Source of the DNA: Malacoraja senta
Lineage: Eukaryota
Direction: 5' to 3'
Length of the DNA: 64,000 bases
Assembly: GCA_038087875.1 (NCBI GenBank)
Contig: CM075988.1
Span: forward strand, 23,190,001-23,254,000
Below are positions 18,136 through 37,949 of this stretch, piece by piece. A program made the position numbers and the translations under genes. How positions within the stretch are numbered: position 1 is the first letter of the stretch; each line of letters begins with the position of its first letter. The notes below the pieces were generated by a model. That model saw only the letters and a list, made by a program, of their open reading frames with translations, searched no databases and was not told the origin of the DNA.

Positions 18136-18989
18136 TTCTACGAGACGACCTTGACATTGGTTCACTAAGCCTTCCAGTGGAATTGGAAAGTTTTGCAGAA
18201 ATGGCATTGGCAGCTACTTTCCAATGCCGTGAGATGCCTGCTGATGGCAGCCCAGGTCACAGAAGCTTTTTTGTAAACCCAACATCTGCAGTTCCTCATA
18301 TCTTCATCCAGGCCAAAGAAGCCCTCTTGATAGGCGACCACTGCAGCACTCCAAACACCCATTCCCTCCACCAACGGCATACAGCGGCTACAATATTTAC
18401 AGTCTACAAAACGCACTACAGTTAGGCACCCAGTCTACTCCAACAGCAGTCCCATGCCCATGACATCCATCACTAGGAAGGACAAGGGCAGAACGTACAT
18501 GGGAGCACCATTGCATGCTCCCCTATGCATCACTCCTGATTGCAAATCCATGCAGTTCGTTAATTAGTTTAGTTTATGTTTATGGTCATGTGTACCGAGA
18601 TGTCGTGCTAACCAGTCGGCAGAAAGACTACATGATTACAATTGAGCCGTCCACAGTGTACAGATACATGATAAAGGGAAGAACATTTAGTGCAAAATAG
18701 AGTCCAGTAAAGGTTGAGGCGCTGCCGTGCTTTCTTGACCATTGCTTCCACATGGGTAGTCCAAGACAGGTTGCTGATGATATTACCTGTCCTTTCAGTC
18801 TGGAGAATGGATTCCTATCTAAAATGTCACCTATCAATGTTCTCCGGAGACGCTGCCTGACCCGCTGAGTTACTCCAGCATTTTGTGTCTTTCCTTGCTA
18901 AACCAGCATCTGCAGTTCCTTGGTTCTACCTGTTCTGTAGTGTCACTTGGTCTATGTCCCGGGACTCCCTGGCCAACAGCATTACCGGA

Positions 18990-19042
18990 GGGGTGGGAAA
19001 TTGCAACCTTCACGTGGTCCGCCCTGTTTCGACTAATGCAAT
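18990..19042 (+). ncRNA. Minimal HDV-like (CPEB3-type) self-cleaving ribozyme, predicted
   Basis: P1 GGGGUGG/CCGCCCU with G1.U wobble; J1/2 GAA; P2 AUUGCA/UGCAAU; P3 ACC/GGU; L3 UUCACGU; vestigial P4 (GUUUCGA); J4/2 CUAA with putative catalytic C at 19033. Confidence 0.8.
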
Positions 19043-19129
19043 CAACCTGACGTGCACTAACAAATAGATCAAATAGAACAAGTTGACCCACAACTTTAGG
19101 CTGTGCACGCCATACGCAAGAAGAAGAAG
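18990..19129 (+). mobile_element. ~140-bp non-autonomous retroposon with HDV-like ribozyme head and (AAG)n tail, copy 1
   Basis: Flanked by direct repeat CATTACCGGA(G) (18980-18990 and 19130-19140); ends in AAGAAGAAGAAG; homologous end to end with 36955-37095 (-). Confidence 0.9.
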
Positions 19130-19179
19130 CATTACCGGAGTATCTTCAGCAGAAGGACCAGGTGAAGCTGATGAAGCAA

Positions 19180-19552
19180 CAGACAATAGACAATAGGTGC
19201 AGGAGTAGGCCATTCGGCCCTTCGAGCCAGCACCGCCATTCAATGTGATCATGGCTGATCATCGCCAATCAGTACCCCGTTCCTGCCTTCTCCCCATATC
19301 CCCTGACTCCGCTATCTTTAAGAGCCCTATCTAGCTCTCTCTTGAAAGCATCCAGAGAACCTGCCTCCACCGCCCTCTGCGGCAGAGAATTCCGCAGACT
19401 CACCACTCTCTGTGAGAAAAAGTGTTTCCTCGTCTCCGTTCTAAATGGCTTACTCCTTATTCTTAAACTGTGGCCCCTGGTTCTGGACTCCCCCAACATC
19501 GGGAACATGTTTCCTGCCTCTAGCGTGTCCAAGCCCTTAACAATCTTATATG
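19180..19552 (-). mobile_element. Young CR1 LINE 3' end
   Basis: TYKIVKGLDTLEAGNMFP...FKRELD; (agacaat)n tail. Confidence 0.92.
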
Positions 19553-36140: not shown

Positions 36141-36954
36141 GGTGGCGCTCCATTACTTCCAATATTGAACCAGACTTTGGACCTTGAGCTGTTTTGTTTC
36201 CTTTGTAAACGCCGCCAAAATATGTGCCTTTGTGAGTTGTGCAAAAGAATTTCACTGGGCCGTGCATACATGACAATAAAGTACCATTGAACCAGGTGAA
36301 GGATGATCAGCATGGACTCAGTGGGCCGAAGGACCTAGTTCATGTTGTATCGGTAAACTAAACTAATTTCCAGTTCCAACCCTAAGCTGATCCCATGGTC
36401 CAACTCTGCAGTCTACCCTTTGTGTAATTTTCTTCACTTGTAACTGTAAGAATTTCTATTTTGATGTTACACCCGGTCAAACTCTTTTCATGAATTCACT
36501 CACAGGAGTAAAATTGGCAAGGATAAGCACTCCGCGTTTCCCTTGAACTGAACAGCTCTCTACTCTGCAAGGTTTCCCTTTGTATTACCTGTTGTACTAG
36601 TTCATGGTTTCGCTTGCACTCATCCACTGCATGATTTGATGGGAACGCACGCAAGCAGATGTGTTTCATTGTATTCCGGTACACATGACAACAATAAATC
36701 AATTCCAATCTGACAACTCGCTCGAACTTCAGAGAGGGTACGACAGTGAAACTATTTTTTTTGAGGATCAGGAAAGCAACTTTACAGTAGACGTTCCATG
36801 ATCACTATATTGATACACTCTCTTTAATCCAATTACTTATGGAGTCATAGAGCGATACAGCGTGGAAACATGCCCTTCGGCCCAACATGTCCCAGCTACT
36901 CTAGCCCCACCTGCCCACGTTTGGCCCATATCCCTCCAAACCTGTCCTATCCAT

Positions 36955-37095
36955 CTTCTTCTTCTTGCGTATGGCGTGCACAGCCTAAAGTTGTAGGACA
37001 ACTTGTTCTATTTGATCTTATTTGATTGTGCACGCCAGGTTGATTGCATTCGTTGAAACAGGGCGGACCACGTGAAGGTTGCGATCTCCCACCCC
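36955..37095 (-). mobile_element. ~140-bp non-autonomous retroposon with HDV-like ribozyme head and (AAG)n tail, copy 2
   Basis: Inserted in a CR1 remnant with 11-bp TSD GTCCTATCCAT (36944-36954 and 37096-37106); same 5' start GGGGTGGGA as copy 1. Confidence 0.9.
37043..37095 (-). ncRNA. Minimal HDV-like ribozyme, predicted (one P2 mismatch)
   Basis: Minus strand reads GGGGUGG GAG AUCGCA ACC UUCACGU GGU CCGCCCU GUUUCAA CGAA UGCAAU; J4/2 is CGAA; C-A mismatch in P2. Confidence 0.72.
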
Positions 37096-37949
37096 GTCCT
37101 ATCCATGTACCTGTCTAACTGTTTCTTAAGTGTTGGGATAGTCCCAGCCTCAACTACCTCCTCTGACAGCTTGTTCCATACACCCACCACCCTTTGTGTG
37201 AAAAAGTTACCCCTCAGATTCCTATTAAATCTTTTCCCCTTCACCTATGTCCTCTGGTCCTCGGTTCACCTACTCTGGGCAAGGGAATCTGCGCATCTAC
37301 ACTATACATCTATCAGCTGTCATAGTTGGATTTGAACTCATAACTTCCCATCACTAATCCCATAAGATTGCAGACCCATACCATTGTGCGATATCGGAAC
37401 TGGAGCTTTGTGAGTGCCTGCGTAATAGTCTATGTTCTGTGTTGTACACTGTGGGACAATCATCAGGTAAATGTGTTCACTATTCGCTGATGTAAGTTAA
37501 CATTTTCTGAAATGTAGAACTGAAAACATATTTTTTCCATTTATTCAATAGGTATACTCTGACCCCCTGATGAGACTGAACAATCAACAACTCACCACAT
37601 ATGCCCTGTGTATGTGGTTTAGATATACATCCTGGCTTCTGAAATGGCTAATTACTCTCAAACAGCTTCAGGGATGTTCCTATCTGTTGCTACTTGCCAT
37701 TTCAGAATACAATGTTGAACTAATTCTCAAGCTTTAAGTAAACCACTAATTGGGTTTTTTTTATTGAAGGGAGAATTACTCAGTTGGCTGTGCAGCAAGA
37801 TCTATAGGAATGGAATGCTGACTTGAACTGAACACTTGGAAAAACAAAACCCCATTAATCTTCAAATCCCACCATTGAATCTGCCCCTCAGCCACTCTTC
37901 ATCTCTGCCAGCTGGACTAGAGAGTTTGCAACTTTGGTCTCACAACTTA

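What the first reader, a model, noticed from the sequence alone, without database searches (positions are those of the whole stretch)
18990..19129. Ribozyme-headed mini-retroposon: a ~140-bp SINE-like element that starts with a complete minimal HDV-like ribozyme
Seen: the first 53 nt parse as P1 GGGGUGG, J1/2 GAA, P2 AUUGCA, P3 ACC, L3 UUCACGU, P3' GGU, P1' CCGCCCU, GUUUCGA, J4/2 CUAA, P2' UGCAAU. The element has a TSD of about 10-13 bp and an (AAG)n tail, no recognisable Pol III A/B boxes and no ORF. Established: this is the nested double-pseudoknot order of HDV-family ribozymes. It includes the G1.U cleavage-site wobble, the same L3 heptamer and following GU as the mammalian CPEB3 ribozyme, and a C-N-A-A J4/2. 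HDV-like ribozymes are known to process the 5' ends of R2, RTE and L1Tc retrotransposons and of R2-derived SIDE elements. Inference: this is a promoterless non-autonomous family that cuts itself out of host read-through transcripts and is mobilised by a LINE (RTE-like, judging by the tail). P4 is almost absent, making it one of the very small forms. I do not know of a description of this family in cartilaginous fish but cannot exclude one.
Basis: partly seen in the sequence, partly recalled or inferred. Interest (0 to 1): 0.92.

Follow-up and report, generated by a model that had tools for sequence, protein, structure and literature searches.

The report
Ribozyme-headed mini-retroposon family
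This 138-base insert is one copy of a young jumping element with thousands of copies, whose first 54 bases have the full layout of a small self-cutting RNA of the hepatitis-delta type, and two other short element families in the same genome start the same way.

Summary
Window 18990-19127/19129 is a non-coding insert with a 10-12 bp target-site duplication and an ACGC(AAG)n tail. Its first 54 nt parse as P1-J1/2-P2-P3-L3-P3'-P1'-linker-C·UAA-P2'.

It belongs to a young family. A strict 35-nt head pattern gives 2,828 exact matches in the 1.94-Gb genome and none when reversed. All 30 inspected copies start at the same G.

Two unrelated short families (about 205 bp and 155 bp) also start with HDV-like ribozymes. 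Their P1 and P2 sequences differ but remain complementary. The P3/L3 core and the C-N-A-A junction are conserved. P1 plus P3 pair in 96.4% of cells, against 84% when shuffled and at most 54% when slid.

Weak Rfam matches to HDV-family models, all below gathering score, fall exactly on the three heads.

5'-truncated copies with duplications indicate LINE-type target-primed reverse transcription. The best reading is a promoterless LINE-dependent retroposon whose 5' end is made by self-cleavage.

Three things are not shown: cleavage itself, expression, and the autonomous partner, which several searches failed to find. The kind is known (R2 SIDEs, NARTc/L1Tc, RTE heads), so this is a new member of it. 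It is notable for its minimal P4-less head, its copy number, and a CPEB3-like sister head.

The parts
18978..18989 (+). 5' copy of the target-site duplication (AGCATTACCGGA; last 10 bases unambiguous)
   Evidence: TSD scan (L001 = window copy)
18990..18996 (+). P1 5' strand GGGGTGG; G18990 is the predicted first base after cleavage
   Evidence: (30 of 30 copies start here)
18997..18999 (+). J1/2 (GAA here; GAG or AAG in most copies, where G10 can pair with C54)
19000..19005 (+). P2 5' strand ATTGCA
19006..19018 (+). P3 (ACC/GGT) enclosing L3 TTCACGT, the core conserved in all three families
19019..19025 (+). P1 3' strand CCGCCCT (CCACCCT in the youngest subfamily; U5.G versus U5-A)
19026..19032 (+). 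J1/4 plus vestigial P4 (GTTTCGA); the first G can form a one-pair P1.1 with the C of L3
   Evidence: compare the 5-bp P4 hairpin of family 2
19033..19036 (+). J4/2 CTAA; C19033 is the candidate catalytic cytosine (C-N-A-A in all three families)
19037..19042 (+). P2 3' strand TGCAAT
19043..19113 (+). non-coding body, including a 6-bp hairpin AAGTTG-ACCCA-CAACTT at 19080-19096
   Evidence: many 5'-truncated copies begin at this hairpin
19114..19129 (+). 3' end ACGC(AAG)4, shared with family 2
19128..19139 (+). 3' copy of the target-site duplication (its first two bases overlap the tail)
36955..37095 (-). second copy of the same family in the window, with TSD ATGGATAGGAC at 37096-37106 and 36944-36954

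Best explanation
The insert is one copy of a LINE-dependent, non-coding retroposon family with no promoter of its own that I could detect. Its first 54 nt are a minimal HDV-like self-cleaving ribozyme.

Proposed life cycle. A source copy is transcribed as part of a longer host or read-through transcript (inferred). The head folds into P1/P1.1/P2/P3 with almost no P4, and cuts just 5' of G1 using the J4/2 cytosine (inferred from anatomy). This frees an RNA that begins exactly at G1. A LINE reverse transcriptase recognises the 3' hairpin plus the ACGC(AAG)n end and copies the RNA into a staggered nick by target-primed reverse transcription. The duplications, the microsatellite tail and the 5'-truncated copies show this last step.

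The same design recurs in two more families of the genome. Family 2 is about 205 bp, has a 67-nt head with a P4 hairpin, and carries the same ACGC(AAG)n tail. Family 3 is about 155 bp, has an 87-nt CPEB3/R2-like head, and ends in GCGAAC(RAAC)n.
For: 1. Family and 5' end. The DNA search found 1,792 first-look candidates and scored 40, all 95-100% identical. 35 of those 40 alignments start at base 1. All 30 of 30 fetched copies start at the same G. There are 2,828 exact head matches and 0 reversed. 23 of 30 copies have a TSD of 8 bases or more, 21 of them flush with G1, against 0 of 28 in the control.

2. Independent families. Family 2 had 845 candidates; the 40 scored were 91-100% identical (91-95% apart from the query's own locus), and 24 of 30 copies have a TSD against 0 of 30 in the control. 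Family 3 gave 291 core matches and 0 reversed, and 17 copies were inspected.

3. Structure. On 25 heads from the three families, 96.4% of P1+P3 cells pair, against 84.0% shuffled (0 of 500 shuffles reach it) and at most 54.4% when slid. Four pairs change on both sides. P2 is (G)AUUGCA/UGCAAU(C) in family 1, GUUGUCG/CGACAAC in family 2 and GACAGAA/UUCUGUC in family 3. Cells paired are 186 of 189, 149 of 168 and 105 of 112.

4. Conserved core in all three families: G1, NCC/GGN in P3, L3 of the form U-Y-C-N-C-G-U, and C-N-A-A before P2'.

5. HDV-family covariance models hit exactly the heads. RF02682 scores 18.7 bits at 18990-19043. It scores 36.7, 34.2 and 32.1 bits genome-wide on family 2, best E = 0.027 for 1.94 Gb, and 32.8 bits with P4 aligned. 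RF00622 (CPEB3) scores 23.7 bits on family 3, E = 2.3e-4 in a 220-nt search.

6. Family 3 carries CCTCCTCGTGG. A passage of PMC5035012 names this as the most conserved motif of R2 ribozymes.

7. TPRT signature. About 15 of 20 fetched hits are copies truncated at the 3' hairpin, and at least 8 have duplications abutting the break.

8. No tRNA-like head was found.
Against: No cleavage or expression data exist. No RNA run was on record, and assembled contigs cannot show RNA ends.

Every Rfam match is below its gathering score. In the RF02682 genome search, 6 of 14 control genomes also gave sub-threshold matches.

Fold energy is no better than shuffles (z = 0.07 to -1.07).

The covariation rests on essentially three lineages. 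Within family 1, the test of pair 6-31 is only weakly positive: counts are 2828, 27, 334 and 9, against 3.9 doubles expected, Fisher p = 0.011. A mixture of copy ages and CpG decay could explain that result.

Family 3 mostly has G1-C rather than G1.U at the cleavage-site pair (12 versus 4 of 16).

No autonomous LINE with this tail or head was found. A precise 5' end alone would also fit an internal promoter.
Confidence: 0.77

Rival explanations
1. The head is an internal promoter or transcription-start element, as in ordinary SINEs. The uniform 5' end at G1 is then a transcription start, and the HDV-like look is incidental or vestigial.
For: A precise common 5' end is equally expected from an internal promoter. 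The fold energy of the head is unremarkable. All Rfam scores are below gathering.
Against: No tRNA, 5S or 7SL similarity was found. Three heads with unrelated helix sequences keep the same complementary P1 and P2 and the same catalytic-core letters. A promoter would conserve sequence rather than pairing.
Confidence: 0.07
2. The ribozyme fold is real, but its main job in these elements is something other than 5' processing. It might be a binding site for the LINE protein or a translation or stability element, as the R2 5' pseudoknot is said to bind R2 protein. It might also be a dual promoter-ribozyme like Pr77/L1TcRz of L1Tc.
For: A passage of PMC6765202 states that R2 protein binds a pseudoknot within the ribozyme region. 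The abstract of PMC3383444 describes the same 77 nt of L1Tc/NARTc as both promoter and ribozyme. Full-length copies dominate the sample.
Against: Nothing here tests protein binding or promoter activity. The catalytic C-N-A-A and the G at +1 are kept in all families, which is what cleavage needs. The elements begin exactly at the predicted cleavage site.
Confidence: 0.1
3. The families are dead relics. They were internally deleted derivatives of an extinct ribozyme-headed LINE, and today's copies, including the window copy, no longer cleave or move.
For: No partner LINE was found. Individual copies carry decay mutations in helices.
Against: Sampled family-1 copies differ from their consensus by only about 2.5%, although the sample is biased to the best 30. 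2,828 heads are still letter-perfect over 33 fixed positions. The window copy keeps every core feature.
Confidence: 0.06

Closest known systems
R2 SIDEs (short internally deleted elements) of Drosophila
   Same: Non-autonomous and ORF-less. A 5' HDV-like ribozyme makes the 5' end from a co-transcript, and the 3' end is used by the LINE protein (PMC3414825 abstract; PMC6765202 passage).
   Different: SIDEs insert site-specifically in 28S rDNA and share both ends with a known R2. The families here are dispersed, with varied flanks and 8-14 bp duplications. They number in the thousands, and no LINE sharing their ends was found.
NARTc / L1Tc and other Pr77-bearing elements of trypanosomatids
   Same: Dispersed autonomous and non-autonomous retroposons whose first 77 nt hold an HDV-like ribozyme (abstracts of PMC3185411, PMC3383444 and PMC4035085).
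   Different: Pr77 is also an internal promoter. The host is a protist. The head is larger, and the partner LINE is known and shares the head.
HDV-like ribozymes at the 5' ends of RTE and Baggins LINEs (Ruminski et al. 2011)
   Same: Promoterless non-LTR elements freed from read-through transcripts by an HDV-like ribozyme. I know this only from a passage of the review PMC6765202, because the paper itself is not held. The review adds that some non-autonomous SINEs use such ribozymes.
   Different: Those are autonomous insect elements. Here only short non-coding elements were found, and an RTE partner is not shown.
Mammalian CPEB3 intronic ribozyme (Rfam RF00622)
   Same: Family 1 has the same L3 heptamer, UUCACGU. 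Family 3 aligns to the CPEB3 model over its whole length (23.7 bits) and shares GGGG..CA, CAGAAGC and AAUUCUG, so part of P1 and 5 of 7 P2 pairs are identical. Family 2 is 67 nt with C57-GAA before P2'. I recall that as the CPEB3 arrangement.
   Different: CPEB3 is a single conserved intronic locus in mammals, not a mobile family. The score is below the gathering threshold of 35.
Minimal HDV-like ribozymes lacking P4 (metagenomic drz; theta ribozymes of gut phages)
   Same: Family 1's head has no real P4. Such minimal forms are known to exist (PMC10879173 introduction passage).
   Different: Those come from metagenomes and phages, next to tRNA genes. Here the minimal form heads a eukaryotic retroposon.
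Hammerhead-bearing SINE-like elements of schistosomes, and retrozymes
   Same: Short non-autonomous retroelements that carry a self-cleaving ribozyme (PMC6765202 passages).
   Different: They use a different ribozyme class. Schistosome elements use Pol III and tandem copies, and retrozymes go through circular RNA. None of that is seen here.

Membership tests
HDV-like (delta) self-cleaving ribozymes | Strand order P1-(J1/2)-P2-P3-L3-P3'-P1'-(P1.1/P4)-J4/2-P2', forming a nested double pseudoknot | tested here: met
   Read directly from the sequence. The same order holds in families 2 and 3.
HDV-like (delta) self-cleaving ribozymes | P1, P2 and P3 kept by compensatory changes | tested here: met
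   Between three families, P1+P3 pair in 96.4% of cells against 84.0% shuffled and at most 54.4% slid, with 4 pairs changed on both sides. P2 has three different complementary sequences. Within family 1 the support is only weak (p = 0.011).
HDV-like (delta) self-cleaving ribozymes | Catalytic cytosine at the start of J4/2, followed by N-A-A | tested here: met
   Family 1 has C-UAA or C-GAA, family 2 has C-GAA, and family 3 has C-CAA (13 of 16, plus 3 with CAA). That this C is the catalytic one is inferred.
HDV-like (delta) self-cleaving ribozymes | G at +1 forming a G.U wobble at the base of P1 | tested here: met
   G1.U36 occurs in 19 of 25 heads and G-C in 4. The window copy has G.U. Family 3 is mixed, with 12 G-C and 4 G.U of 16.
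HDV-like (delta) self-cleaving ribozymes | L3 with U at its first and G at its sixth position, and P1.1 between L3 and the bases after P1' | tested here: met
   L3 is UUCACGU, UCCCCGU or UCCUCGU. It is followed after P1' by G(U) in families 1 and 2 and by GG in family 3 (13 of 16). P1.1 can be only one pair in family 1.
HDV-like (delta) self-cleaving ribozymes | P4 helix | tested here: not met
   Family 1 has only GUUUCGA between P1' and the C. Families 2 and 3 do have a P4. P4-less minimal forms are accepted members of the class (PMC10879173 passage).
HDV-like (delta) self-cleaving ribozymes | Score at or above an Rfam gathering threshold | tested here: not met
   Scores are 18.7 of 44, 36.7 and 32.8 of 44, and 23.7 of 35. 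Nothing in the window reaches gathering score.
HDV-like (delta) self-cleaving ribozymes | Site-specific self-cleavage giving 5'-OH at G1 | not testable with these tools
   This needs an in-vitro assay or end-specific RNA sequencing. No RNA run was on record.
Canonical SINEs | Head derived from tRNA, 7SL or 5S RNA with an internal Pol III promoter | tested here: not met
   ARAGORN finds none. Rfam finds no such family.
Canonical SINEs | Short, non-coding, TSD-flanked, with a LINE-type 3' tail | tested here: met
SIDE / NARTc type (internally deleted copy of an autonomous LINE sharing both ends) | An autonomous element with the same ribozyme head and the same 3' end | tested here: inconclusive
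   Exclusion patterns at the tail, after the head and before the 3' hairpin returned only variants or truncated copies of the short elements.
RTE-mobilised retroposons | A partner RTE-type LINE ending in the same repeat | tested here: inconclusive
   The one abundant old LINE with a short 3' UTR ends in CCGCCGATG(ATG)n in all 27 ends seen. No such coding end was found joined to the AAG or GAAC tails. Its clade was not established.

The most novel reading that the evidence does not exclude
These elements are living relatives of the source of the mammalian CPEB3 ribozyme. A vertebrate lineage of ribozyme-headed mini-retroposons carried heads of CPEB3 type. Family 3 shares P1 and P2 letters with the CPEB3 consensus, letters that the fold itself does not dictate. 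Family 1 shares its L3, and family 2 shares its size and C57-GAA layout. The single conserved CPEB3 intron ribozyme would then be the exapted head of one such insertion. More broadly, promoterless 'ribozyme-SINEs' would be a distinct and successful class of vertebrate retroposon, with three heads, two tails and on the order of 10^4 copies here. They would also be the first eukaryotic home of P4-less minimal delta ribozymes.
Probability: 0.15. Interest if true: 0.85.

Novelty: new member of a known kind. Interest (0 to 1): 0.63.

Why it matters
HDV-like ribozymes at the 5' ends of retrotransposons are known mainly from insects (R2, RTE, Baggins) and trypanosomes (L1Tc/NARTc). Here, one large animal genome holds thousands of young, very short elements that appear to depend on such a ribozyme instead of a promoter. 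One of their heads is a 54-nt form with almost no P4.

If cleavage is confirmed, three things follow. There would be a natural series of three heads (54, 67 and 87 nt) for structure-function work. There would be a clean case of how a non-coding RNA can become a successful retroposon without a Pol III promoter. And there would be a concrete, testable lead on where the mammalian CPEB3 ribozyme came from.

For genome annotation, these families should be recognised as ribozyme-bearing repeats, not as unclassified SINEs.

Tried and rejected
1. Rfam at gathering score over the whole window found nothing.

2. Fold energy of the heads against shuffles was not distinctive.

3. Expression. The look-up of sequencing runs listed no RNA holder on record. 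The four runs laid were all assembled contigs, which cannot show RNA starts or ends. No contig covered the unique flanks at 18948-18971 or 19140-19163. This says nothing about expression or cleavage.

4. Partner LINE by reverse transcriptase. The Pfam RVT_1 search was dominated by a young L1 family with an A-rich tail, so it was rejected as the partner.

5. Partner LINE by tail. DBS+ACGCAAG(AAG)3 gave 12 hits, which were family-1 variants, one unexplained end (L051) and two copies of a lysine-rich coding-like repeat. D..R..+ACGCAAGAAGAAG gave 38 hits against 11 in the control, with no recurrent new end.

6. L051 lead. The ORF fragment upstream of it belongs to an old LINE (2,773 candidates). 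All 27 of its 3' ends seen finish in GATG/ATG repeats, so it is not the partner. Joining that coding end to the AAG or GAAC tails gave 0 hits.

7. Partner by head. Three patterns for a fourth P1 found family 3 and decayed copies only. A different continuation after family 3's P2' gave 0 hits with a wrongly sized gap (my error). With the right gap it gave 1 hit, which is a short element with a 6-nt deletion.

8. A different sequence in front of the family-1 body gave 9 indel variants. In front of the 3' hairpin it gave 23 hits, which were truncated copies.

9. The 'compensatory subfamily' GGGGTAG...TCTGCCC was downgraded after the 2x2 count.

10. Earlier scan notes held nothing relevant.

11. 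Literature searches found no description of such elements in cartilaginous fish or other vertebrates (one search was badly framed and uninformative). Repbase and Dfam could not be consulted, and Ruminski et al. 2011 is not held.

Full report
**The insert itself**

The segments are:

| Segment | Sequence | Coordinates |
|---|---|---|
| P1 | GGGGTGG | 18990-18996 |
| J1/2 | GAA | 18997-18999 |
| P2 | ATTGCA | 19000-19005 |
| P3 | ACC | 19006-19008 |
| L3 | TTCACGT | 19009-19015 |
| P3' | GGT | 19016-19018 |
| P1' | CCGCCCT | 19019-19025 |
| linker | GTTTCGA | 19026-19032 |
| J4/2 | C19033 then TAA | 19033-19036 |
| P2' | TGCAAT | 19037-19042 |

A 71-nt body follows, with a 6-bp hairpin at 19080-19096. 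The element ends in ACGC(AAG)4. The flanks repeat AGCATTACCGGA at 18978-18989 and 19128-19139. ARAGORN finds no tRNA-like gene. No Rfam family reaches gathering score anywhere in the window.

**A large, young family with one 5' end**

The window lies in a 1.94-Gb assembly.

- A DNA search with the 140 nt gave 1,792 first-look candidates. The 40 that were scored were 95-100% identical, and 35 of the 40 alignments started at query base 1.
- In all 30 loci fetched, the element begins at the same position. The four I inspected whose alignments started at base 2 or 3 simply have a substituted first or second base.
- A strict pattern of the first 35 nt, with two positions free, matches 2,828 places. 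The reversed control matches none.
One is a second copy in this window at 36955-37095 on the minus strand. That suggests on the order of 10^4 copies, very roughly.
- The 30 best copies differ from their consensus by 2.5% on average. This sample is biased towards the best matches.
- 23 of 30 copies have a duplication of at least 8 bases, and in 21 it lies flush with G1. Mismatched flank pairs give 0 of 28.
- A pattern aimed at other contexts of the 3' hairpin gave 23 hits. About 15 of the 20 fetched are copies truncated at that hairpin, and at least 8 have a duplication abutting the break, sometimes with a few bases of microhomology.

Tail, duplications and 5' truncation together are the signature of LINE-type target-primed reverse transcription.

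**Two more families built the same way**

Scanning the genome with the Rfam model RF02682 (HDV ribozyme of F. prausnitzii) gave five matches of 36.7 to 25.9 bits. The best E was 0.027 for the whole genome. All five are the first 65-68 nt of a second short element of about 205 bp.

- **Family 2** had 845 candidates; the 40 scored were 91-100% identical (91-95% apart from the query's own locus). 24 of 30 copies have duplications, against 0 of 30 in the control. Its consensus head is GGGGCTC-AT-GTTGTCG-ACC-TCCCCGT-GGT-GAGCCCT, then a 5-bp P4 hairpin, then C-GAA-CGACAAC. It ends in the same ACGC(AAG)n as family 1.
- **Family 3** came from a pattern that demanded a different fifth P1 pair. It gave 291 hits against 0 reversed. 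The head is GGGGATC-AT-GACAGAA-GCC-TCCTCGT-GGC-GATCCC(C/T)-GG, then a roughly 38-nt P4, then C-CAA-TTCTGTC. The element is about 155 bp, is flanked by duplications, and ends in ACACGAGCGAAC(RAAC)0-2.

**Support for the fold**

All three heads have the same length up to P1' (36 nt), so they align without gaps.

- On 25 heads, the P1+P3 structure pairs 96.4% of cells. Shuffling gives 84.0% (0 of 500 shuffles reach the observed value), and sliding the partner gives at most 54.4%. Three P1 pairs and one P3 pair change on both sides.
- P2 uses three unrelated but complementary sequences. Cells paired are 186 of 189 in family 1, 149 of 168 in family 2 and 105 of 112 in family 3. In family 2, three copies are miscounted because of a 1-nt insertion.
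- These features are conserved in all three: G at +1, P3 of the form NCC/GGN, L3 of the form U-Y-C-N-C-G-U, and C-N-A-A just before P2'.
- Rfam's CPEB3 model aligns to family 3 over its whole length at 23.7 bits, E = 2.3e-4 in a 220-nt search. The printed consensus confirms that CPEB3's L3 is UUCACGU, the heptamer of family 1.
- Family 3 carries CCTCCTCGTGG. A passage of PMC5035012 gives this as the most conserved motif of R2 ribozymes.

**Weaknesses of the structural case**

- Every Rfam score is below gathering. In the RF02682 genome search, 6 of 14 control genomes also gave sub-threshold hits.
- Fold energies are ordinary, although the minimum-energy fold of the 54 nt is exactly P1+P3.
- The covariation amounts to three lineages.
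- Within family 1 I counted the four combinations at pair 6-31: 2828 G/C, 27 A/C, 334 G/T and 9 A/T. The expected number of doubles is 3.9 and Fisher p = 0.011. Copy-age structure and CpG decay could produce this, so I give it little weight.
- Family 3 mostly has G1-C rather than G1.U.

**What was not found**

No RNA run was on record. The four runs laid were contigs. They show that family-like sequence occurs in runs labelled with four different coded organisms, but they say nothing about RNA ends.

The autonomous partner escaped every search.

- The dominant reverse-transcriptase hits are a young L1 with an A-rich tail.
- Tail and head exclusion patterns returned only variants or truncated copies of the short elements.
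- An abundant old LINE with a very short 3' UTR ends in (GATG)n in all 27 ends examined.
The partner may therefore exist in low copy.

I could not verify that the host is a cartilaginous fish.

**Interpretation**

Best reading, at about 0.77: this is a promoterless, LINE-dependent retroposon. Its 5' end is made by an HDV-like ribozyme that cuts it out of longer transcripts. Its 3' hairpin and repeat tail recruit a LINE reverse transcriptase.

- Shown: the family, its uniform 5' end, the TPRT hallmarks, and the ribozyme anatomy with cross-family covariation.
- Inferred: cleavage, read-through transcription, and the identity of the partner.

**Relation to what is known**

Ribozyme-headed non-autonomous retroposons are already described. 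They include R2 SIDEs (PMC3414825 abstract) and NARTc and other Pr77 elements (abstracts of PMC3185411, PMC3383444 and PMC4035085). [quoted passage not shown] P4-less minimal delta ribozymes are known from metagenomes and phages (PMC10879173 passage).

I found no description of such families in vertebrates in four full-text searches. Repbase, Dfam and Ruminski et al. 2011 could not be read.

I therefore file this as a new member of a known kind. It is notable for the minimal head, for three heads sharing two tails, for its copy number, and for the CPEB3-like head of family 3. That last point makes the origin of the CPEB3 ribozyme testable.

Noticed in passing
window 36944-37106 (minus strand): A second full copy of the same family lies here, of the subfamily with CGAA at J4/2 and a TCCTA hairpin loop. 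It has the TSD ATGGATAGGAC. One P2 pair is broken (ATCGCA).
   Followed up: partly
window 18800-18935 and 19177-19340: The insert sits between two other very high-copy repeats. Contig depth on 19188-19247 was one to two orders of magnitude above that on the element. Their families were not identified.
   Followed up: no
L082 (G000:C2:44043000-44049500): A young L1-type LINE with a coiled-coil ORF1 of 275 aa and an intact ORF2 of 1,269 aa (endonuclease, RT, zf-RVT) and an A-rich tail. Fewer than 20 of the 150 listed RT hits show a 1,269-1,288-aa open frame at about 149 bits.
   Followed up: partly
L051:2076-2480 (minus) and L087-L092, L113-L132: An abundant old LINE (2,773 candidates) whose ORF ends in a C2H2-like finger. 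Its 3' end is ...GTTTCGAGTGACCGCCGATG(ATG)n in all 27 ends seen. By recall this resembles Rex3/RTE-type tails, but the clade was not tested.
   Followed up: partly
L031 (G000:C10:3700900-3701700, minus strand): A diverged relative of family 1 in which the stretch from L3 to J4/2 is replaced by about 65 nt of other sequence, next to a long C/T-rich tract. It may be a rearranged copy or an older variant.
   Followed up: no
L040 and L046 (around position 1500, minus strand): Two copies of a repeat that holds CACGCAAGAAGAAGAAG inside a lysine-rich, coding-like stretch. It is unrelated to the retroposon tails.
   Followed up: no
5' copies of the TSDs: Many duplications start with N-A-G or N-A-A, so the target may offer a few bases matching the AAG tail for priming. 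This was not tested statistically.
   Followed up: no
L136-L149, L083 (family 3): Family 3 splits into at least two subfamilies. One has GATCCCC-GGAAACG (G1-C) and the other GATCCCT-GGAAGCG (G1.U). The difference lies at a CpG.
   Followed up: partly
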